Origin: Octopus vulgaris
Taxonomy: Eukaryota
Direction of reading: 5' to 3'
Assembly: GCA_951406725.2 (NCBI GenBank)
Contig: OX597819.1
Coordinates: forward strand, 76,260,001 to 76,324,000
DNA: 64,000 bases
The position numbers and the translations under genes are program-made. The notes beneath the pieces were generated by a model that had not been told where the DNA came from, ran no database searches, and was given only the letters and a program-made list of their open reading frames with translations. Below are positions 114 through 62,684 of the stretch, in pieces (positions within the stretch are counted from its first letter, which is position 1; every line of letters starts with the position of its first letter).

Positions 114-346
114 CTGTTGTGTCTGGGGAGAGTAATTTTCTTTTTGTGCCTTATAATTTGACACACCCATCGGTAAAATTTCCTCTTATTTCTCATTTCT
201 TTTGCGCTAAGAGTCAAGACTATTGAAAAGGTTCCAAGACGCAACGAAAATTTTAGGAAAATAAAAACAAGATATAGTAGAAATGTTACCGGTGAGTGTG
301 TTAAATTATAAGGCAAAAAGAAAATGCCTCTCCCCAGACACAACAG
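114..346. repeat. Imperfect inverted repeat (arms ~114-182 and ~281-346) abutting a (TA)n tract; probable fold-back retroelement remnant
   Basis: ctgttgtgtctggggagag..ttttctttttg..ccttataattt.acacac (114-) is the reverse complement of gtgtgttaaattataaggcaaaaagaaaatgcctctccccagacacaacag (-346). Confidence 0.75.
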
Positions 347-360
347 TATATGTATATATA

Positions 361-898
361 TATAATTTCAACAATTGAGGGTAAAATTAATTAGTTATTA
401 ATCAATTTCACCAAGTGTTCAGTATGCAAAGGGACCATTTAAGGCGAATTCAAATTATTACATTATATAAAAGGGCTTAGTAAAATAAATTACTTCGCCG
501 CATACTGAACTCATTAGAAATAGCAGCTAAAAAACTTTTTTAAAGCTATTTCTAATACTTAAAGAAAATCTCTCTCATATATAGCGTTTGCTTAATTCAA
601 CTCACAAAAGTTTGGGGTAAGGACATTAAAAAATCAAATGCTAAGGTTATTTGAGTACGTACGTTTCAAGATTAGTCAAAACAACATTTCTCTCTTCAGC
701 TCAGAAATTCCTTGGTTTGGATTTGGAAACACTGAAAGCAAGAACATACCCTTTCGAAGATCCGCTCTTAACTAACAGTGCCAACAAACCCAAAATAAGC
801 AAGTGAATCATTTCTGTTCTCCCCTTTCCACCAGCGTGGGTTAAAATCATCAAACGCTATGCTTATTTCGGTAAAATCCGAAGCATTAATTAGAGGGA
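361..898 (-). mobile_element. Inverted, nearly full monomer of the 546-bp hammerhead-bearing repeat
   Basis: Reverse complement of the unit in 898-2618 (circularly permuted, ~8 nt short); outer end runs into (TA)n at 347-360. Confidence 0.92.
652..703 (-). ncRNA. Type I hammerhead ribozyme (inverted monomer copy)
   Basis: Reverse complement of tgag-CTGAAGA-gaga...tctt-GAAA-cgtacg-TA-ctca. Confidence 0.75.
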
Positions 899-1280
899 AA
901 AAAGTTTTTTAGCTGCTATTTCTAATGAGTTCAGTATGCGGCGAAGTAATTTATTTTACTAAGCCCTTTTATATAATGTAATAATTTGAATTCGCCTTAA
1001 ATGGTCCCTTTGCATACTGAACACTTGGTGAAATTGATTAATAATTAATTAATTTTACCCTCAATTGTTGAAATTATAATGAATCTCCCTCTAATTAATG
1101 CTTCGGATTTTACCGAAATAAGCATAGCGTTTGATGATTTTAACCCACGCTGGTGGAAAGGGGAGAACAGAAATGATTCACTTGCTTATTTTGGGTTTGT
1201 TGGCACTGTTAGTTAAGAGCGGATCTTCGAAAGGGTATGTTCTTGCTTTCAGTGTTTCCAAATCCAAACCAAGGAATTTC

Positions 1281-1332
1281 TGAGCTGAAGAGAGAAATGT
1301 TGTTTTGACTAATCTTGAAACGTACGTACTCA
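1281..1332 (+). ncRNA. Type I hammerhead ribozyme, unit 1
   Basis: Stem I tgag/ctca; core CTGAAGA 1285-1291; stem II gaga/tctt; GAAA 1317-1320; palindromic stem III A-CGTACG-T; predicted GUA cleavage after 1328. Confidence 0.8.
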
Positions 1333-1826
1333 AATAACCTTAGCATTTGATTTTTTAATGTCCTTACCCCCAAACTTTTGTGAGTTGAATTAAGCAAACG
1401 CTATATATGAGAGAGATTTTCTTTAAGTATTAGAAATAGCTTTAAAAAAGTTTTTTAGCTGCTATTTCTAATGAGTTCAGTATGCGGCGAAGTAATTTAT
1501 TTTACTAAGCCCTTTTATATAATGTAATAATTTGAATTCGCCTTAAATGGTCCCTTTGCATACTGAACACTTGGTGAAATTGATTAATAACTAATTAATT
1601 TTACCCTCAATTGTTGAAATTATAATGAATCTCCCTCTAATTAATGCTTCGGATTTTACCGAAATAAGCATAGCGTTTGATGATTTTAACCCACGCTGGT
1701 GGAAAGGGGAGAACAGAAATGATTCACTTGCTTATTTTGGGTTTGTTGGCACTGTTAGTTAAGAGCGGATCTTCGAAAGGGTATGTTCTTGCTTTCAGTG
1801 TTTCCAAATCCAAACCAAGGAATTTC

Positions 1827-1878
1827 TGAGCTGAAGAGAGAAATGTTGTTTTGACTAATCTTGAAACGTACGTACTCA
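1827..1878 (+). ncRNA. Type I hammerhead ribozyme, unit 2
   Basis: Identical to 1281-1332, +546. Confidence 0.8.
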
Positions 1879-2372
1879 AATAACCTTAGCATTTGATTTT
1901 TTAATGTCCTTACCCCCAAACTTTTGTGAGTTGAATTAAGCAAACGCTATATATGAGAGAGATTTTCTTTAAGTATTAGAAATAGCTTTAAAAAAGTTTT
2001 TTAGCTGCTATTTCTAATGAGTTCAGTATGCGGCGAAGTAATTTATTTTACTAAGCCCTTTTATATAATGTAATAATTTGAATTCGCCTTAAATGGTCCC
2101 TTTGCATACTGAACACTTGGTGAAATTGATTAATAACTAATTAATTTTACCCTCAATTGTTGAAATTATAATGAATCTCCCTCTAATTAATGCTTCGGAT
2201 TTTACCGAAATAAGCATAGCGTTTGATGATTTTAACCCACGCTGGTGGAAAGGGGAGAACAGAAATGATTCACTTGCTTATTTTGGGTTTGTTGGCACTG
2301 TTAGTTAAGAGCGGATCTTCGAAAGGGTATGTTCTTGCTTTCAGTGTTTCCAAATCCAAACCAAGGAATTTC

Positions 2373-2424
2373 TGAGCTGAAGAGAGAAATGTTGTTTTGA
2401 CTAATCTTGAAACGTACGTACTCA
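2373..2424 (+). ncRNA. Type I hammerhead ribozyme, unit 3
   Basis: Identical to 1281-1332, +1092. Confidence 0.8.
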
Positions 2425-3467
2425 AATAACCTTAGCATTTGATTTTTTAATGTCCTTACCCCCAAACTTTTGTGAGTTGAATTAAGCAAACGCTATATAT
2501 GAGAGAGATTTTCTTTAAGTATTAGAAATAGCTTTAAAAAAGTTTTTTAGCTGCTATTTCTAATGAGTTCAGTATGCGGCGAAGTAATTTATTTTACTAA
2601 GCCCTTTTATATAATGTATATATATATATATATATATATCGTTACTATTGTGTTAAACTGTAGTATGTCCAAATTTGGCTAAATGCGATTTTTTTCAATA
2701 TTTATTTTTGCTTGGAATAGCCGGTTCTTTTGGTCAAACTATCGTATCTCCAGCTGCTTCAAATGCCAAGATATCAAAACTTGTCAAAGTGTAGTACAGT
2801 AGCTTGTGACTCGATACAATTGTGAGGAATACGAATATTTTATCTTCCTACACAATGAAAGTGATTGCGTTTATTCCACCGAGTGATCTTCTGAATGCTT
2901 TTCATTTAGAGGAAGAAAATTTGAGTAAATATCAAAATCAGATAAGAGTAGGATATGCTCTGTATGAAAACATTTTTTTGTAATCGATGTTCAGTTTTAG
3001 AAAGCAAATTAGTTCAGAATTTCATAAAATTGTGAAGAGCTGATATATGTTTATTCTTGATTTTTTTTTCATGTGTCAACAAAGATAGCGAAGAGAAATA
3101 TTTGTCTGGTAAATTTAATATATTCGATTTCTATCTCAGTAATCTGACATTTTTCTTGAGCAATTCAGTATAAGATATTTGCTTTTGTTCAAATATTACT
3201 GGGAGTATCTTTTTCCGTGACACATCTGGTTTCATATCCGTTTGTTCTATCACCCAGACTCATTATTCTCTGGCACTCTTTTTATAAAGGGAAATAATTC
3301 TTCGTAACAGATTGTTTTGTGAAAGAGACTTTGCGTAATAAATGTTAGTAATATTATTAATCAATTTTATATTCATTTTAAATGGATACATGCTTCAATA
3401 TTATAACATTTCATCAGTAGAAAACAGTTGTAATGAACTGACAATTATCCATCATCTGTAATTATTT

Positions 3468-4842: not shown

Positions 4843-5766
4843 TCCTTTTCTATTCTAAGCACAAGGCTCAAAAGTTTTGGGGAAGGGGCCATTCGATTAG
4901 ATCGACCTCAGTATGCAACTAGTACTTAATTTATCAACCCTGAAAGGATGAAAGGCACAGGTGACCTCGGCAGAATCTGAACTAAGAACGTAAAACAGAC
5001 GAAATACCTATTTCTTTACTACCCACAAGCGACTAAACATAGTAGACAAACAAGGACAGACAAGGGGATTAAGTCGATTACATCGACTCCAGTGCGCAAC
5101 TGGTACTTAATTTATCGACCCCGAACGGATGAAAGACACAGTCGACCTCGGCGGAATTTGAACTCAGAACGTAACGGCAGACGAAATACCTATTTCTTTA
5201 TTACCCACAAGAGGCTAAACACAGAGGGGACAAACAAGGACAGACAAAGGGATTAAGTCGATTACATCGACCCCGAAAGGATGAAAGACACAGTCGACCT
5301 CGGCGGAATTTGAACTCAGAACGTAACGGCAGACGAAATACCGCTAAGCATTTCGCCCGGCGTGCTAACGTTTTTTATTTCTTTATTGCCCACAAGGGGA
5401 CAAACAAGGGCGTTAGGTCGATTACATCGATGCCAGTGCGTAACTGGTACTCAATTTATTGACCCCAAAAGGATGAAAGACAAAGTCGACCTCGGCTGAA
5501 TTTGAACTCAGAACGTAACGGCAGACGAAATACCTATTTCTTTATTACCCACAAGGGGCTAAACACAGATGGGACAAACAAGGACAGACAAAGGTATTAA
5601 GTCGATTTTATCGACCTCAGTGCGTAACTGGTACTTAATTTATCGACCCGAAAGGATGAAAGGCAAAATCGACCTCGGCGGAATTTGAACTCGGAACGTA
5701 GCGGCAGACGAAATACCGCTAAGCATTTCGCCCGGCGTGCTAACGTTTCTGCCAGCTAACCGCCTT
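4843..5766 (-). mobile_element. Tandem cluster (~5 partial units) of a tRNA-derived SINE with Meta-like core
   Basis: Head aaggcgg..agctggcagaaacgttagcacg, B-box-like gagttcaaattcc, core ctttcatcctttcggggtcgataaattaagtaccag repeated about every 150-190 bp. Confidence 0.85.
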
Positions 5767-12519: not shown

Positions 12520-13099
<580 letters not shown>

Positions 13100-19464: not shown

Positions 19465-20391
19465 ATGGTTTCAAATTTTTCCACGAGGGCAGCAATTTTG
19501 GTGGCGGAGATGAGTCGATTTTAACGACCCCCAGTGCTCAACCAGTACTTATTTTATAGATCCCGAAAGGATGAAAGGCAAAGTCGACCTCAGCAGAATT
19601 TGAACTCAGAACGTAAAGACGGATGAAACGCCGTTATGCATTTTGCCCTCCGTGCTAACGTTTCTGCCATTTCGTCCCCTTATATACAAGAATAATGATT
19701 TCAAATTTTTGCCACAAGGGCAGCTCGGGGAGGGTTTGAAGTCGATAATATCTACTCAGTGCTAAAATTTCTGTCAGTTTTCCGTCTTATAAACAACAAT
19801 AATAATCCTTTCTACTAGAGGCACAAGGACTGAAAACTGGTGGGAAGAGGCCAGTCGATTAGATCGTCCCCAGTACACAACTGGTACATAATTTATCGAC
19901 CCCGAAAGGATGAAAGGGCAAAGTCGATCTCGGTAGAATTTGAACTCAGAACGTAGCGGCAGACGAAATACATTTTTCATTACTACCCACAAGGGGCTAA
20001 ACAAAGAGAGGACAAGCAAGGACAGACAAACGGATTAAGTCGATTATATCAACCCCAGTGCGTAACTGGTACTTATTTAAATCGACCCCGAAAGGATGAA
20101 AGGCAAAGTCGACCTCGGCGGAATTTGAGCTCGGAACGTAACGGCAGACGAAATACTTATTTCTTTACTACCCACAAGGGGCTAAACACAGAGGGAGCAA
20201 ACAAGGACATACAAACGGATTAAGTCGATTAGATCGACCTCAGTGCGTAACTGGTATTTAATTTATCGACCCCGAGAAGATGAAAGGCAATGTCGACCTC
20301 GGCGGAATTTGAACTCAGAACGGAACGGCAGACGAAATACGGCTAGGCATTTCGCCCGGTGTGCTAACGATTCTTTCATTTCACTGCCTTA
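19465..20391 (-). mobile_element. Tandem cluster of Meta-like tRNA-derived SINE units
   Basis: gaactcagaacgta.cggcagacgaaatac block recurs at ~19600, 19940, 20127, 20311. Confidence 0.85.
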
Positions 20392-22831: not shown

Positions 22832-23162
22832 ATAATGAAATCAAACAGTCTTCGATTAATCGAAGACTGTTTGATTTCATTATTTTTCTTCTTTTTTTTT
22901 TGCCATATGTGAGTCGCAAATATTTTTGTCTCTGGAGACATATTTTTGTAGAAAAAGGAAATAGTAGTCTTTTGGCTGCTATTTCTAAAATTTTCGGTAT
23001 ATGGTCAAGCAACTTGTTGCAAAACCCTTATTGTTATAATTATATATAAAAAGACTTTTTGTATAAGTTTTTACCGAATATGGTCCTTTTCCATACCGAA
23101 ATACTACGAGGTGAAATTTGTTGATTTTATTGAATTAATTATCTTTCACCCTATATCTGTAA
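22832..23162 (+). mobile_element. Penelope-type 3' fragment with a 52-bp perfect 5' palindrome
   Basis: Palindrome 22832-22883; 22970-23155 homologous to the 3' module of the 546-bp unit; ends in (TA)n. Confidence 0.7.
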
Positions 23163-23174
23163 TATATATATATA

Positions 23175-23305
23175 CGCTGTCGAAGAGCGTAGGCTCGAAA
23201 CGTAAAAGACTTTTTCTATTTCTATTCCTGAGCGCTATACTAATACATTTGTTTGTTTGTACTCCATCTGCCTTCGTCTTTTGTTCATTTTCGTAAACTT
23301 TCCCG

Positions 23306-32861: not shown

Positions 32862-32926
<65 letters not shown>

Positions 32927-33059
32927 AAAATAGTAAAGTGTGAAAAAACGACAGAAGGCTTAAATGTTAAAAAATATATATATTTGTGTCAAAATGTCTG
33001 GAGAATATTGGAAAAATTTTTTTCCCTTTCCTTAAAATGACATGATTTTAAAATTTTTT

Positions 33060-33099
33060 AAGAAATTACCGGTTTCGCGTGTAGCTTTTCAAATTTCTT
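33060..33099 (-). ncRNA. Minimal hammerhead ribozyme variant (U3-A8) in Penelope 3' repeat
   Basis: Reverse complement of 35536-35575. Confidence 0.7.
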
Positions 33100-33234
33100 G
33101 TGACGTTATGTTTATATTGCATGGAATTATCGTTGTTTTTATTTCCAGGAGATTTCTAAATAAGGGGAGGTAGTGAGTGATTTTTTCCGGTGTAGGGGAG
33201 ATAATCGCTTAAAAATTTTTTTCCCTTTTCCTTG

Positions 33235-34692
33235 TTAATTTCTCTGTGTCAGTATGTTCGGATGGTTGAGTCTGGGTTTGTACTTTTCAATGAAGAATGT
33301 TTCCTTGTTCAGTCTCATTTGTATTGATGATCCGAAAGTACATTGGTAAAATGGGAAGATTAAAAATTGTGGCAGTAGTTGCTTTGCGCATTTCTCAATG
33401 TGCTCACTAAAAGGTATCATTCTATTTTCTGGGAATGCAATCTGTTGTCGATGCAGTGTGCATCTGCGCCTGAGTGATAGTCCCGTGGAACCCACGTAGT
33501 CTTGGTGGCAGCCCGAGCATTTAATAACATAAATTATGTTTTCAGAGGCACAAGTAAAGTTAGATTTGATCTTAAATTTCTGTCCCTCTTTAAAGAAGAA
33601 TTCTGATCCTTCCAATAGGTTAGGACATGTTGCACAGTTCGATCTACCACATTTTTTTACTTTTGCATCCGTAATTTTAGAAGACAATTTTGCCTTTGTG
33701 AGAATCTTTTTAAGTGATTTAGGCTGTTTGTAGCTTTTAATGATTTGGTGTATGTTTAGAATTTCCTTTAATTTTGGGTTTTTATGAAGTATTGGTAAAT
33801 TCTGGGTGATGATGGTGAAGGCTTCTTTGTTTCTGGGGTTGTATGTAGATATGTAAGGTAGTATTTTCGGGGAAGGTGTGTTGTTGTGTTGAACTTTTCT
33901 TAAAGTTTCTATATTGATTTCTGTTGCACGTCTGATCCCATCCTCTATGAGTTGAGCTGGGTAATGTCTGTCAATTAGGGTGTTTTTGAGTTCTTGCAGT
34001 CTAAAGTTCCTGGTATTTTGTTCTGACACTATTGTGCATATCCTTCTTGCAAGGTTGAAGGGGATGTTTGTTTTAGTGTGTCTTGGGTGGCATGAATTAA
34101 AAAGAAGGTATTGTCTGGCGTCTGTGGCTTTGTAAAAAATGTCTGTTTCTATTTTAAGGTTAATTTTTTTAATTAGTATATCCAAGAACGGGAGCTCCTT
34201 TTGGTTGTATTCCATTGTGAACTGTATATTTGGGTTTATGCTGTTCAATAGGTTTTTAAATTTTAGGAGTTTATCTATGTTTTCATTCCAGAGAATGAAA
34301 CAATCGTCTAGGAATCGTTTCCAATTCTCTTTTATGTATTGAGAGAGGGAGTTTCCAAAGATTGATAGAGATTCCTGGTAAATGATTATTTCCATGTATC
34401 CCATTGTTAAGTTCGCAATGACTGGTGCTGCCCTTGTACCCATAGCAATTCCGGATTTTTGACGGTAAAATGTATTGTCAAACATGAAGTGGTTATTGTG
34501 TAGGATGAATTCAATTGATTTAGTAATGAATTCCTTACTGATCCTTTTTGGTATTTCTTCCGGAAATTGGTCTAACCAGAATTGTATTGCCTCCAGTCCA
34601 TAATTATGAGGTATACTGGTATACAAGTTGACTACATCAAATGAAACCAGGATTGTTTCTTCCTTGGTTTTTTTTGGAAGGTGGTTTAACAT
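33235..34692 (-). CDS. Penelope-like reverse transcriptase + GIY-YIG endonuclease (N-terminally truncated, frame intact)
   Basis: LVSFDVVNLYTSIP, QKSGIAMGT, KRFLDDCF, LPFLDI, YLLFNSCHP; Cys linker CGRSNCATC; IIYVIKCSGCHQDYVGST..LRRR..H. Confidence 0.93.
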   Translation of the reverse strand: MLNHLPKKTKEETILVSFDVVNLYTSIPHNYGLEAIQFWLDQFPEEIPKRISKEFITKSIEFILHNNHFMFDNTFYRQKSGIAMGTRAAPVIANLTMGYMEIIIYQESLSIFGNSLSQYIKENWKRFLDDCFILWNENIDKLLKFKNLLNSINPNIQFTMEYNQKELPFLDILIKKINLKIETDIFYKATDARQYLLFNSCHPRHTKTNIPFNLARRICTIVSEQNTRNFRLQELKNTLIDRHYPAQLIEDGIRRATEINIETLRKVQHNNTPSPKILPYISTYNPRNKEAFTIITQNLPILHKNPKLKEILNIHQIIKSYKQPKSLKKILTKAKLSSKITDAKVKKCGRSNCATCPNLLEGSEFFFKEGQKFKIKSNFTCASENIIYVIKCSGCHQDYVGSTGLSLRRRCTLHRQQIAFPENRMIPFSEHIEKCAKQLLPQFLIFPFYQCTFGSSIQMRLNKETFFIEKYKPRLNHPNILTQRN

Positions 34693-34716
34693 ATCTAAGT
34701 CATCTCTGATATGGCT

Positions 34717-35399
34717 ATCAACATAGAAACTTTAAGAAAAGTTCAACACAACAACACACCTTCCCCGAAAATACTACCTTACATATCTACATACAACCCC
34801 AGAAACAAAGAAGCCTTCACCATCATCACCCAGAATTTACCAATACTTCATAAAAACCCAAAATTAAAGGAAATTCTAAACATACACCAAATCATTAAAA
34901 GCTACAAACAGCCTAAATCACTTAAAAAGATTCTCACAAAGGCAAAATTGTCTTCTAAAATTACGGATGCAAAAGTAAAAAATGTGGTAGATCGAACTGT
35001 GCAACATGTCCTAACCTATTGGAAGGATCAGAATTCTTCTTTAAAGAGGGACAGAAATTTAAGATCAAATCTAACTTTACTTGTGCCTCTGAAAACATAA
35101 TTTATGTTATTAAATGCTCGGGCTGCCACCAAGACTACGTGGGTTCCACGGGACTATCACTCAGGCGCAGATGCACACTGCATCGACAACAGATTGCATT
35201 CCCAGAATATAGAATGATACCTTTTAGTGAGCACATTGAGAAATGCGCAAAGCAACTACTGCCACAATTTTTAATCTTCCCATTTTACCAATGTGCTTTC
35301 GGATCATCAACACAAATGAGACTGAACAAGGAAACATTCTTCATTGAAAAGTACAAACCCAGACTCAACCATCCGAACATACTGACACAGAGAAATTAA
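34717..35399 (+). pseudogene. Inverted duplicate of the Penelope linker + GIY-YIG domain, one frameshift
   Basis: ORFs 34711-35100 and 35019-35399 reproduce the C-terminus of 33235-34692 with a few substitutions. Confidence 0.9.
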
Positions 35400-35535
35400 C
35401 AAGGAAAAGGGAAAAAAAATTTTTAAACGATTATCTCCCCTACACCGGAAAAAATCACTCACTACCTCCCCTTATTTAGAAATCTCCTGGAAATAAAAAC
35501 AACGATAATTCCATGCAATATAAACATAACGTCAC

Positions 35536-35575
35536 AAGAAATTTGAAAAGCTACACGCGAAACCGGTAATTTCTT
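35536..35575 (+). ncRNA. Minimal hammerhead ribozyme variant (U3-A8) in Penelope 3' repeat
   Basis: aagaaat-TTGAAAA-gc-tacac-gc-GAAA-ccgg-TA-atttctt: 7-bp stem I, 2-bp stem II, palindromic A-CCGG-T stem III. Confidence 0.72.
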
Positions 35576-35749
35576 AAAAATTTTAAAATCATGTCATTTT
35601 AAGGAAAGGAAAAAATTTTTCCAATATTCTCCAGACATTTTGACACAAATATATATATTTTTTAACATTTAAGCCTTCTGTCGTTTTTTCACACTTTACT
35701 ATTTTCTTATATATTCACCCACGTGCTTTACCAAACAAACTTTCTTATC

Positions 35750-35883: not shown

Positions 35884-37509
35884 CACACACACATGCACAT
35901 ATACATACATACATACACATATATAATATATAGATATAAGTGTGTGTACGTATAGGTAGAATGGGAGTAACATTCCGTTATTGGCAGGACCACCAATATA
36001 TATAATACATATAAATATGTATCATATTGCACACACAAACATATATGTATGTATGCAACAGATATCTAACGTGTAATATAGGTAATATAGCGAGTCGAAA
36101 TTTTCAAATACATATACCATTAACTACTAGCTAACATACACATTTATAGTTTATCAATAGTTGCTTAAACACTTTCTTAATACTCAGTCAATAAAAGAAG
36201 GCTTTTAACCATTTACCGGGCGTCTATCATGGATAGAAAGAAGGAAATATCTACGTATGATGTCTAGCAATAATGCTTGCAATAGAATTGACTCGTCCCA
36301 GGCCTAGGAAGTAGTGTTCAAACAAGCAATTTCATACAACTACAGCTCAAAGAGTTACAGATTGAGCTCTGACACAAAAATCGACTATATGTTTGTTATT
36401 GAACAGTTAATGAAGATGAATGTAACTTGAATATATAAGCAGTGTATAAATCGGCTGGAAAATAATAAAGACCAGCTGAAAAACTCCTTGAGAATAAATA
36501 TTTTATAATGAAATGAAAAATTTTGACAAAATAATAAAGAATTTAATGAAAATAGATATATTTGTACAAAACCGATAGAGTTGCACATATACGTACATAC
36601 ATAGAAATGCACACATGTATATACTTACATATGTGTGTGTATGTATGTGTGTGTGTCTTTGTGCCTGTGTGTTTGTGTGTAAGGCTTGCAGCTCTAAAAC
36701 CAATCACAACTCTTAATCGTACACTCTTAAAACATACATGCTATACACACTATTCATATATAAAGAGCTTATGTGAGTTACATAAAAACACACCGTCACT
36801 CACAATAACATAAGAGTAAAAACACATACACAGCAATAATCACATACATACGTACACATATACAATCATCTGCGGTTCTCTTAGAACCAGCGCAATACCC
36901 ATACAGTTCTCATTTAAATTCAGCTAACATGTAGTTACACAAATACCAAAATTTGACAAGCACAGATATTATCAAACAGTTTCTGTTGTCGCAGATGTGT
37001 GTGTGTGTGTACATGTTTATAGGAGATGCGGGTTCGAGACCCACGAGTAGTCTTCGACTACAGTTTCATGGCATATAGTGGGTTCACAGACATTCGAGTA
37101 ACTGGGTTATTCATGCAGAAGGTACACAAAATAGTTCTAGATATCGTTATAATCTGGAGGGGATGAACTTGTGAGGTGAAATTTAAGAGTATCAGTCAGT
37201 GGGTACATTTTAACACAAAAACACAAAGATTATACACTTAAGAGACACTCTTTTCTTTAAAATCAAATTGTGCAACAAATAGTCCGGCTCTCAGATTATT
37301 AGATAGGAGGTCATTTGGAAAGACAGAGTGGGATCAGTGGATAGAAATGTAGTGAACATATATATAAAGGGTGTCCATAAAGTCTCTTAACATTCGATTG
37401 AATATAATTCCACATCAGACATTCTCCTATTTTGGTGAAGTTTTCTAGTCATAAGGGGTGTTCTGATTCCCAGGTCTCACACTATATATATTCAGTTTCC
37501 CTGAAACAT

Positions 37510-37648
37510 GAAAGCAATTTTTGGCTGAACCCTATTTATAATTATACTCATAATTAAAGAATTTTTGTATAAGTTTACCGATAATGGTTCTTTAACATAC
37601 CGAACTACTTGGTAAAATTATTAATTATTAATTATTTTTCCTTTATTA
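37510..37648 (+). mobile_element. Penelope-type 3' fragment, same family as 38062-38250
   Basis: Near-colinear with 38100-38250. Confidence 0.65.
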
Positions 37649-37792: not shown

Positions 37793-38250
37793 TATACAAA
37801 AATTCTATAATTACGAGCATAATTATAATTAGGGTTCAACAAAAATTTACTTCACCACATACCGAAATTTAAAAATAGCACTTAAAACTAATTATTTCAT
37901 TACCATAAGAAAATCTCCTAGACAGCAATACTAAACAACTTACGCTGGTAAAGAGAAAAAAATAACAAATCCACCCGGTTCTGATTAACTGTATACGCGT
38001 TTCGGAGTTAGAGAGATGTGAAAAATGAAAAATCATATTTCTACTCTCCCATTCTCTTCTTAGTTAGTTTTAACTGCTAATTCTAAATATCGGTGTGTGG
38101 TGAAGCAAGTTTTTGCTGAACCTTAATTATAATTATACTCATACTTATAGAATTTTTGTATAAGTTTACCGAAAATGATTCTTTAACATACCGAACTACA
38201 TGGTAAAATAATTAATTATTAATTAATTAATTTTGCTCTTTATTATTACG
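37793..38250. mobile_element. Fold-back Penelope-type remnant (left arm minus, right arm 38062-38250 plus) between (TA)n tracts
   Basis: 37793-37892 is the reverse complement of 38064-38162; minus strand has ctcc-GAAA-cgcg-TA (3' half of a hammerhead) at ~37994-38007. Confidence 0.7.
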
Positions 38251-59070: not shown

Positions 59071-59116
59071 AACACAACGTTTCGGCTGATATACCCTTCA
59101 GCCTTCATCAGGTGTC
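59071..59116 (-). ncRNA. Minimal hammerhead ribozyme motif
   Basis: gacac-CTGATGA-a-ggctg-aagggtatat-cagcc-GAAA-cg-TT-gtgtt; stem III reduced to palindrome ACGT. Confidence 0.65.
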
Positions 59117-60069: not shown

Positions 60070-62059
60070 ATTGAATATTCTGCTACGAGCATGGGCGATT
60101 GCTAGTGGCGATTCGCCAAGCAACATTACCGCTGCACTAAAGAACAATGGCTTTCACAGAACCATTGACCAGATAGAGCGGAAGAAGAGAGAATTTATCC
60201 CGTCTTATACGAATTTATCCGGTCTATATGAGACCACACATCAACAACTTCGATAACATAATGGAAAATTATTGCGGCAAGGCTAATAAGGATGGAGAAG
60301 ACGAAAAAGAAAAGGAAACAAAACCAGGAAGTCTCTGTAATCCAGAGGTTCCTCAAGAAAATGGATCACCCGCCCGGTGAACGACCAGGCAGAAAAGGAT
60401 AGGGGAATCAAGGAAGCAGTAACTGGAAGCCCTCCTGTGCCAGTGGTCCTACAAAGGAACGGAGCCCCACCTCATTAGAAGCACAGAAAAAAAAGGAAGG
60501 ACGGAAAACGAAAATAAAAAAGGAAAGGAAGGAAAAGGCAAAACAACCAAAACCCAAACCCAAACCCACCAAACAAACAACAGAAAATCCCATGGAGGAT
60601 CCAATGCCACCCAAAACCATACTGGAAAGAAGAAATCTGGAAGGCACCCAAGAACCTGTAAATTTTACCTGCAGGGCAAATGTTGACATGGGGAGGACGG
60701 CAAAAACTGCAGGTTTGCCCACCCGGCACCCCGCCATAACTACAGGGGCCTTAAATAGAAAAACTTTACTGAGGAAAGACAAGAAGTGTCACCCAGGAAA
60801 ACATTCAGAAAAGAAGTGTGCTCCTCAGATGTTCTGCGCAACGCAACAGCTGAGCAAGAGTCTTTTGTGTGCATGGCGCAAAGGATTGACCTTGGCAGCG
60901 CTGGAAAACTTGGAGAGTGGTTACATGACTTCCTGAAAGATAGGAGACAGGCAGTAGTGGTTAATGGAGCCACCTCTATGAACACATAAATAGTGAGCGG
61001 TGTTCCACAGGGCACTGTCTTGGGACCACTGCTTTTTATAGTGGCCCTCTCAGATATGCCCTCAAATGCCCGGATAGCCACTCTGGCAAGCTATGCAAAT
61101 GATACGAAAGTTTCGCAGAAAATACAGAAACCCAGCAATGTCGCACACCCGCAGCAGGAGTTGGGCTCAATTTACAGATGGGCTGAGGATAATAATATGC
61201 AGTTTAATGCTGAAAAATTCCAGGCCCTGCGCTACCAGCATCCAAAACTGAATATTAACCTTACAGAGTATACCGGTCCACAGGGAATTTCAATCCCAGA
61301 GCCTAAGTTAGCGAGTGACCGGGGTATCGACATGAGTGATGATACCTCTTTCCAAGTGCACATTACCATGATGGCGACAAAGTTCAGACGACTTTGGATC
61401 CTAAGAACATTCAGAACCAGAGATAAGGAAACCATGATGGTCCTCTGGCGGACATTCGTCCTCAACCGCCTGGATTACTGCTCACAGCTATGGTCACCCA
61501 CTAGTGTGAAATTAACAGCGGACCTTGAAGCAATCCAGAGAAGATTCACAAAGAAGATCGTCTCTTTGCAACAGCTCAGCTACTGGGAAAGGTTGAAACA
61601 GCTAAGACTCTACTCCCTGGAGAGTAGACGGGAGAGGTATGCAGTAATATATATCTGGAAGATCCTGGAAGGAATTGTGCCAAATTTTGGCATTGAAAGC
61701 TACACCAATGCCAGAATGGGATGACACTGCATAGTGCCAAAGATCCCAGCACTGCCATCATGCACCAGGACCAGTTACTACAACAGCCTGGGTTTCAAGG
61801 GCCCACAGCTTTTTAATATTCTCCGAAAGAGCCTGAGGAACTTCAACAAAGTAGATGTAGCGGTTTTTAAATCAAAGCTGGACCTCTTCCTGTCGAGCGT
61901 CCCAGATGAACCTACCTCACGGCAAGATGTGCAAATGAGGGTAGCTATATCAAACTACATTCTTCACCAAGTGCCACATATTAGAGAAGGCTCTTAGTAA
62001 TAATAGTGTAGCACAAAACGGCGGTGTATCAGCATGGCCGCAGCTCTGAACTGAAACTA

Positions 62060-62062
<3 letters not shown>
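60070..62062 (+). mobile_element. CR1-group LINE, internally deleted: ORF1 remnant with CCCH finger joined to RT, plus 3' UTR
   Basis: CKFYLQGKC*HGEDGKNCRFAH at 60657-60722; GKLGEWLHDFLKDRRQAVVVNG, SGVPQGTVLGPLLF, YANDTK, LDYCSQLWSP, LYSLESRRER. Confidence 0.88.
60888..61997 (+). pseudogene. LINE reverse transcriptase C-terminal half, inactivated
   Basis: In-frame stops at ~60989 and 61724; catalytic YADD changed to YAND. Confidence 0.88.
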
Positions 62063-62154
<92 letters not shown>

Positions 62155-62157
<3 letters not shown>

Positions 62158-62684
62158 TAGTTTCAGCTCAGAGCTGCGGCCATGCTGATACACCGCCGTT
62201 TTGTGCTACACTATTATTACTAAGAGCCTTCTCTAATATGTGGCACTTGGTGAAGAATGTAGTTTGATATAGCTACCCTCATTTGCACATCTTGCCGTGA
62301 GGTAGGTTCATCTGGGACGCTGACAGGAAGAGGTCCAGCTTTGATTTAAAACCGCTACATCTACTTTGTTGAAGTTCCTCAGGCTCTTTCGGAGAATATT
62401 AAAAAGCTGTGGGCCCTTGAAACCCAGGCTGTTGTAGTAACTGGTCCTGGTGCATGATGGCAGTGCTGGATCTTTGGCACTATGCAGTGTCATCCCATTC
62501 TGGCATTGGTGTAGCTTTCAATGCCAAAATTTGGCACAATTCCCTTCCAGGATCTTCCAGATATATATTACTGCATACCTCTCCCGTCTACTCTCCAGGG
62601 AGTAGAGTCTTAGCTGTTTCAGCCTTTCCCAGTTGCTGAGCTGTTGCAAAGAGACGATCTTCTTTGTGAATATTCTCTGGATTG

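What the first reader, a model, noticed from the sequence alone, without database searches (positions are those of the whole stretch)
929..1059. Covarying structured 3' RNA module shared by three diverged non-coding families
Seen in the 546-bp unit: P1 gttcagtatgc(929-939)/gcatactgaac(1012-1022), stacked P2 ggcgaa/ttcgcc, a bulge aaatggtcccttt, then a 14-bp hairpin P3 (1027-1059). The same layout recurs at 22970-23155 (tttcggtat/ataccgaaa, A-U changed to G-C; bulge aatatggtcctttt; ggtgaaa/tttcacc) and at 38068-38240 (tcggtgtgt/acataccga; ggtgaagc/gtttacc; bulge aaaatgattcttt). The 3' part alone is at 37510-37648. In the three full copies it follows ttt..ctgcta.ttcta and precedes the (TA)n junction or unit end. 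Primary sequence has diverged but pairing is kept. Inference: a cis-acting RNA element, such as the RT/endonuclease loading or priming signal for this retroelement group. I do not recognise it as a named RNA family.
Basis: partly seen in the sequence, partly recalled or inferred. Interest (0 to 1): 0.78.

Follow-up and report, generated by a model that had tools for sequence, protein, structure and literature searches.

The report
Retrozyme RNA fold marking two ends
The repeats are hammerhead-bearing jumping elements (retrozymes) that share one predicted RNA fold despite very different sequences, and their genome insertions stop about ten bases past either of two of its hairpins, so the fold likely tells a borrowed reverse transcriptase where to start copying.

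Summary
Each host repeat is a 450-650 nt ORF-less tandem unit with a type I hammerhead, i.e. a non-LTR retrozyme; all nine families whose unit I retrieved carry one. The module starts 80-130 nt after the predicted cut. Eleven family modules, 48-77% identical (shuffled baseline 51%), were folded without constraints; all give P1 enclosing a junction, and 10 form local hairpin H1, with compensatory changes and G-U bias on the ribozyme strand. Insertion ends sit about 8-14 nt past H1 or past P3 (119 of 123 microsatellite-abutting ends in three families). Two-armed insertions pair one long with one short end (91 of 127; long+long 0). Best reading: a cis signal that positions two internal priming sites for a Neptune-type Penelope-like reverse transcriptase, the structural basis of an unusually long 'tail'. 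No Rfam match; not found in eight literature searches. The autonomous partner was not found and expression was not tested.

The parts
361..898 (-). Inverted arm: one full 546-nt retrozyme unit (family f1), ending at the long end against (TA)n
   Evidence: (99.8% identity to the unit)
898..2618 (+). Direct arm: 5'-truncated unit, two full units and a partial unit that stops at the short end, then (TA)n
1281..1332 (+). Type I hammerhead: stem I 4 bp, core CUGAAGA at 1285, long loop II, palindromic loop III, predicted cut after 1328; repeated at cores 1831 and 2377, and at 699 on the minus strand
   Evidence: descriptor; 226 hits in 651 kb of held, partly overlapping loci, 0 in reversed and complemented controls
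1428..1473 (+). P0 hairpin whose 3' arm is the conserved CUGCUAUUUCUA-like motif; 5' arm variable (missing in the 929 copy because of the inversion junction)
913..924 (+). Conserved motif just 5' of P1
   Evidence: 84 of 111 descriptor hits carry a loose version though it was not required
929..1022 (+). P1 (929-939 with 1012-1022) closing a junction that holds H1, an AU-rich variable hairpin and H2
940..965 (+). H1, local hairpin with an internal loop, followed by CU; the short insertion end lies about 11 nt further
994..1005 (+). H2, small hairpin (RCC-N6-GGU here; other sequences in other families; not seen in f7)
1027..1059 (+). P3 hairpin after a short conserved linker, followed by CU; the long insertion end lies about 13 nt further
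12572..12725 (-). Module of diverged family f7 (497-nt unit with hammerhead elsewhere in the genome), long end
12794..12884 (+). Inverted arm of the f7 insertion, stopping at the short end
22832..23165 (+). Family f2 copy: fold-back palindrome at its 5' end (22832-22883), module 22976-23152, long end
37501..37648 (+). 5'-truncated family f3 copy
37793..38061 (-). Inverted arm of the f3 insertion, starts inside the hammerhead region, stops at the short end
38061..38250 (+). Direct arm of the f3 insertion, module 38074-38239, long end
32925..35740 (.). Two-armed insertion of a young autonomous Neptune-type Penelope-like element (RT + zinc-finger linker + GIY-YIG; hammerhead with U3:A8 core in each pLTR). 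Candidate type of helper; its pLTR lacks the module

Best explanation
The module is a conserved folded segment inside tandem, hammerhead-containing non-coding retrozyme units, and it likely works as the cis signal that docks a Neptune-type Penelope-like reverse transcriptase and sets two internal start sites for target-primed copying into (TA)n. Shown: ORF-less tandem units, a type I hammerhead pattern in nine families, the same predicted fold at near-background identity, insertion ends about 8-14 nt past the CU that follows H1 or P3, and one long plus one short end in two-armed insertions. Inferred: multimeric transcripts self-cleave and probably circularise; the helper protein binds P0/P1 and the conserved unpaired motifs; each hairpin acts as an anchor that measures the start site; one complex primes both cut strands of the target, one at each site; run-round copying of a circle gives the tandem arrays and joining of the two cDNAs gives the head-to-head inversion.
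For: Retrozyme identity: arrays of up to 12 consecutive units at 97-99% identity on many contigs; hammerhead in f1, f2, f3, f4, f5, f6, f7, f10, f12; no RT/EN frame joined to a unit in 215 loci (6 loci had hits, read as separate insertions). Fold: 11 modules at 48-77% identity, z -1.6 to -6.1, all more stable than their opposite strand, 10 with P1+H1; two-sided changes at 6 of 7 P1, 2 of 3 H1 and 2 of 4 P3 positions in 12 families; family-majority pairs 183 Watson-Crick, 8 G-U, 1 A-C, 4 other of 196, against 35 G-U and 38 A-C among rare decay variants; descriptor 111 hits against 1 control in 1.72 Mb, 88 of them followed by a microsatellite that was not required. Ends: 22 of 23 (f1), 60 of 62 (f6), 37 of 38 (f2) in two windows of about 40 nt; f6 has no TATA word in either window and its three TATA words elsewhere are unused; 91 long+short, 12 short+short, 0 long+long, 24 other or unresolved of 127. 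Precedent: a Poseidon element starts reverse transcription at two internal sites that bound the tail, downstream of its hammerhead (PMC11167929).
Against: The module was not found in the pLTR of any sampled autonomous element, so the helper and its own signal are unknown. No expression, cleavage or binding data. In f1, f2 and f4 TATA-like words do lie in one or both end windows, and end offsets are broad in f3 and f10. The arms are paired by construction of the descriptor, and helix ends were chosen on the plus strand; the majority G-U cases are about 6 independent events. No tree-aware covariation test was run. H2 is missing in f7. Loci were fetched with module queries, which favours ends at or beyond the module. 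All data come from one genome.
Confidence: 0.6

Rival explanations
1. The fold is selected for RNA stability, circle formation or control of the hammerhead, and the two ends are set only by U-A microhomology between the RNA and the nicked (TA)n target.
For: Retrozyme circles are generally predicted to be highly paired (PMC7229834); TATA-like words lie in the end windows of f1, f2 and f4; the rest of the unit also folds into long rods.
Against: f6 has no TATA word in either window yet 60 of 62 ends fall there; better TATA words elsewhere in f1, f2 and f6 are unused; microhomology alone does not explain 0 long+long of 103 resolved pairs.
Confidence: 0.18
2. The units are dead-end pLTR pieces of an unsampled autonomous Penelope-like element, each made afresh, and the module is that element's 5' leader structure (the reading an earlier follow-up gave for another genome, e1-9873284).
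For: Short two-armed pieces in (TA)n are normal for Penelope-like elements; my sample of autonomous families is incomplete and many copies were decayed.
Against: Long copies run unit-to-unit, never unit-to-ORF; arrays reach 12 units; at least nine families with their own unit lengths exist, several 97-100% identical across contigs.
Confidence: 0.09
3. The signal is read as DNA (single-stranded cDNA or the integrated tail recognised by the GIY-YIG endonuclease), or copying runs on an antisense template that self-primes.
For: The Drosophila Penelope endonuclease needed the tail for recognition (as cited in PMC11167929); antisense self-priming was proposed for head-to-head inversions (PMC3846280); a fold-back palindrome is at 22832-22883.
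Against: G-U bias and lower energy are on the hammerhead-sense strand in all 11 families; cDNA would be the opposite strand.
Confidence: 0.08
4. The module is itself a second, unknown ribozyme or nuclease site that cuts the RNA at the short and long ends.
For: Multi-helix junction with conserved unpaired motifs and two defined ends.
Against: No Rfam match; ends scatter over several bases; the junction nucleotides turn over between distant families; tandem arrays read through both sites.
Confidence: 0.05

Closest known systems
Metazoan non-LTR retrozymes (Cervera and de la Pena 2020, PMC7229834; Li et al. 2026 bioRxiv 10.64898/2026.07.22.740005)
   Same: Non-coding tandem repeats, type I hammerhead in each unit, low GC, monomers to multimers dispersed in the genome, coexisting with Penelope-like elements.
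   Different: Units are 450-650 nt (typical 170-400; the 2026 preprint reports 51-972). Hammerheads have loop II of about 20-55 nt. In the parts I read, neither paper describes a conserved second RNA domain, fixed insertion ends or inverted arms. No homology to a sampled pLTR beyond a short TCTCCCC word, whereas 24 of 57 Xenopus families matched known elements.
Tail and internal initiation of Penelope-like elements (Poseidon PAc, Frangieh et al. 2024, PMC11167929; Craig et al. 2021, PMC8557442; PMC3846280)
   Same: Two alternative ends downstream of a hammerhead, tail present at one end of an inverted insertion, AT-rich targets, 5' truncation with inversion.
   Different: Tail is about 90-130 nt, not 30-40; it is in a non-coding element; both ends follow a hairpin + CU at a similar distance; PAc starts in an AC-rich stem-loop inside its ORF and showed no difference in start site between strands.
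3' stem-loops shared by LINE/SINE pairs (eel UnaL2, PMC1636434, search listing only)
   Same: A conserved RNA structure near the priming site that recruits a reverse transcriptase in trans.
   Different: Here the structure is internal, multi-helix, serves two sites, and no autonomous partner with the same structure was found.

Membership tests
Non-LTR retrozyme | Short tandem repeat without a coding frame | tested here: met
Non-LTR retrozyme | Type I hammerhead in consecutive units | tested here: met
   Four units in the window; nine of nine families whose unit was retrieved. Cores include CUGAAGA, CUGACGA, CUGAUGA and variants U3:A8, U4C, UCGAUGA. Units of f8, f9, f11, f13-f16 were not retrieved.
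Non-LTR retrozyme | Dispersed copies from monomers to multimers | tested here: met
Non-LTR retrozyme | Self-cleavage of the transcript | not testable with these tools
   Only indirect: 5' ends within 10 nt of the cut in 1 of 34 (f1), 7 of 56 (f6), 8 of 44 (f2), weak
Non-LTR retrozyme | Expression as linear and circular RNA | not tested
   No sequencing runs were obtained
Non-autonomous derivative of Neptune-type Penelope-like elements | Insertion signature: (TA)n target, 5' truncation, head-to-head inversion, optional tail | tested here: met
   the same pattern in the autonomous family (21 short, 18 long ends)
Non-autonomous derivative of Neptune-type Penelope-like elements | Sequence homology to the pLTR of an autonomous element | tested here: inconclusive
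   No homology in sampled loci; sample incomplete and model built from the closer families only
Any Rfam family | Covariance-model match at gathering score | tested here: not met
   Window 300-2700 and seven loci: nothing near threshold; only microsatellite-driven microRNA noise. Rfam also missed the hammerheads, so it is not a sensitive test here.
DNA transposon with long terminal inverted repeats (MITE/foldback) | Two equal inverted termini | tested here: not met
   Arms end at different sites (91 long+short, 0 long+long) and the inversion point varies

The most novel reading that the evidence does not exclude
Retrozymes in this genome carry their own RNA platform, absent from the helper's pLTR, that hijacks a Neptune reverse transcriptase: two hairpin anchors each measure a start site about a helical turn downstream, like the boundary anchor of telomerase RNA, and one complex primes the two strands of a cut (TA)n target in fixed fashion, one at each site.
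Probability: 0.3. Interest if true: 0.85.

Novelty: new variant of a known kind. Interest (0 to 1): 0.66.

Why it matters
How animal retrozymes are recognised and primed by a helper reverse transcriptase is an open step in the published model (PMC7229834 discussion; 2026 preprint discussion). This locus supplies a candidate signal with natural compensatory variants from more than a dozen families and two mapped start sites, next to a young, intact Neptune-type family that could supply the protein. That makes the question directly testable, and it bears on how the closest relatives of telomerase reverse transcriptase choose a template position. The elements are abundant: 4566 exact matches to one strict pattern and about 6 insertions in an arbitrary 400 kb, i.e. 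tens of thousands genome-wide by rough extrapolation.

Tried and rejected
Rfam: no match. Known small ribozymes other than the hammerhead (twister, pistol, hairpin, HDV-like) and SECIS: compared by eye from recalled consensus, order of motifs or conservation did not fit; not a formal test. An apparent CUGAUGA...GAAA in the apex of the f2 rod: rejected, many copies read CCGAUGA and stem I is lacking. MITE, foldback or Helentron reading: rejected by unequal arms, tandem units and the hammerhead. MAFFT and model-fitted alignments put H1 of f1/f5 and H2 of f6 out of register, so helices were counted with anchors in scripts instead. The f4 rows were dropped because the reference ran into a TA run. 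f1 and f5 are absent (descriptor did not return their H1); their pairs are. One descriptor hit in the arbitrary sample (L370) looks false. Metagenome scan: 2 hits, both chance matches in unrelated DNA. Helper search: two endonuclease-motif patterns (5868 and 413 hits; 80 loci read) plus 38 loci of the window's Neptune family gave no module in a pLTR. No solved structure related to the Neptune protein. Earlier-findings look-ups by place and by sequence were empty.

Full report
Setting. The window lies in a 2.8-Gb animal genome rich in microsatellites. From recall of its repeats and size it is probably an octopus; no call names it.

Check of the observation. The stated helices P1 and P3 and all four sites are present at the given coordinates and the three regions fold far better than dinucleotide shuffles. 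The first locus is a two-armed insertion in (TA)n: one unit on the minus strand (361-898) and a tandem run on the plus strand (898-2618).

What the repeats are. Searches of the own genome gave 1246, 2709 and 2221 first-look candidates for the three families (not copy numbers), with arrays of up to 12 units. The three units align over their whole length. A type I hammerhead descriptor found a motif in all four window units, cut predicted after 1328, 1874, 2420 and 656 minus, with 226 hits in 651 kb of partly overlapping loci and 0 in controls. Further families f4, f5, f6 and f7, f10, f12 have it too, with different stem I pairs. These are non-LTR retrozymes by sequence criteria. The module starts 121-131 nt after the cut in f1, f2, f4, f6 and about 80-120 nt in f7, f10, f12, and keeps its fold in the cut-to-cut monomer, linear or circular.

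The fold. Pattern searches (4566 and 2146 hits, 0 in controls), a covariance model and a structural descriptor (111 distinct hits, 1 control, 1.72 Mb) uncovered about 16 subfamilies in at least seven distant groups, one in the window itself (12572-12725 minus). The shared layout is P0, a conserved motif, P1, H1+CU, an AU-rich hairpin, H2, P1', a short conserved linker, P3+CU. Eleven natural modules are 48-77% identical against 51% for shuffled partners; unconstrained folding gives P1 in all and local H1 in 10, and each is more stable than its opposite strand. In 12 families, two-sided changes occur at 6 of 7 P1, 2 of 3 H1 and 2 of 4 P3 positions; with one family from each of six groups, 79.5 of 84 cells pair against 66.1 after column shuffling, 0 of 20000 shuffles as high. 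These arms are paired by construction, so the weight lies on features that were not required: the upstream motif (84 of 111), the microsatellite behind P3 (88 of 111), the hammerhead upstream, and family f16, found by the model, whose H1 is closed by A-U pairs. Family-majority pairs were 183 Watson-Crick, 8 G-U, 1 A-C and 4 other of 196, while rare decay variants were 35 G-U and 38 A-C; about six of the G-U cases are independent. H2 has different sequences in f6, f9/f10, f12, f13, f15 and is not seen in f7. No tree-aware test was run.

The ends. Of 215 distinct ends downstream of the motif in f1-f6, 78 were short and 109 long at a microsatellite, 20 at the same sites without one, 8 elsewhere; most lay 8-14 nt past the CU after H1 or P3. 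Mapping over the whole unit, 22 of 23 (f1), 60 of 62 (f6) and 37 of 38 (f2) microsatellite-abutting ends fell in the two windows; f4 rows were dropped as faulty. f7 and f12 behave alike; f3 and f10 are broader. Of 127 two-armed insertions 91 were long+short, 12 short+short, 0 long+long, 24 other or unresolved; among loci fetched with H1-only queries 16 of 16 resolved were long+short. Loci were fetched with module queries, which biases the first arm but much less the second. 5' ends are scattered, with a weak excess near the cut in f2 and f6 only.

The helper. The window holds a young Neptune-type element (RT, CX5CX2C linker, GIY-YIG) with an upstream frame of 495 codons and an 811-codon RT/EN frame, a U3:A8 hammerhead and its own pair of ends about 40 nt apart (21 short, 18 long). 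Neither it nor the other sampled families carry the module in a pLTR. The model was built from the closer families only and scores f7 at just 23.9 bits, so a diverged helper could be missed.

Mechanism. Shown: units, hammerhead pattern, conserved predicted fold, end positions, long/short pairing. From the literature: retrozymes self-cleave, circularise and are thought to be copied by Penelope-like enzymes; a Poseidon enzyme starts at two internal sites that bound the tail. Inferred: the module is the binding and positioning signal, and one complex primes both target strands. I put this at 0.6; rivals are a stability role with microhomology-set ends (0.18), dead-end pLTR pieces (0.09), a DNA-level or antisense signal (0.08) and a second ribozyme (0.05).

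Literature seen. PMC11167929: parts 1-2 of 4. bioRxiv 10.64898/2026.07.22.740005: parts 1-3 of 5; its supplements are closed and could list related families. PMC4209133: part 1 of 4. PMC7229834: passages and Discussion; supplements not read and may include cephalopod retrozymes. PMC8557442, PMC3846280, PMC11722881, PMC6962438: passages only. PMC1636434: listing only. Eight searches showed no description of this module or of retrozymes in octopus; Repbase and subscription journals were not searchable, so the repeat families may be catalogued. Family labels f1-f16 and helix names are mine; the telomerase comparison is recalled.

Verdict. Real, structured and function-linked by position; host class known, module apparently undescribed. 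New variant of a known kind, interest 0.66.

Noticed in passing
window 32925-35740; L121 3460-7860: Young Neptune-type family (98-99% identical copies, 30343 first-look candidates) with two overlapping frames, a 495-codon upstream frame and an 811-codon RT/EN frame, suggesting a frameshift; hammerhead with U3:A8 core.
   Followed up: partly
L073, L079, L082, L130, L205, L244: Hammerhead core variants in active-looking families: U3:A8, U4C and UCGAUGA; loop II up to about 55 nt.
   Followed up: partly
start of retrozyme units (window 1084) and of several Neptune pLTRs (L121, L134, L138, L139, L290): A shared TCTCCCC-like word, possibly a promoter or boundary element and the only link seen between units and autonomous pLTRs.
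   Followed up: no
L136, L146, L299, L065, L074, L229: Retrozymes often sit in the (TA)n run at the end of another retrozyme or of an autonomous Neptune insertion, forming nests.
   Followed up: no
window 23177-23295 and 59076-59111 (minus): Further short hammerhead-like pLTR fragments of other Penelope-like families next to microsatellites.
   Followed up: partly
window 60400-62300: Decayed CR1-like LINE whose 3' end is mirrored tail-to-tail across a (TA)46 run.
   Followed up: no
window 4893-5750 and 19853-20340: Tandem copies of a 181-192 bp SINE-like repeat.
   Followed up: no
L146 1-200, L010 350-900 (minus), L290 1540-1710: Three more diverged module-like families seen by eye in single or partial copies (f8, f14, f11); units and hammerheads not retrieved.
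   Followed up: partly
units of f1, f2, f3 upstream of the hammerhead: A long rod-like hairpin is predicted in the other half of each unit; its conservation was not tested.
   Followed up: no
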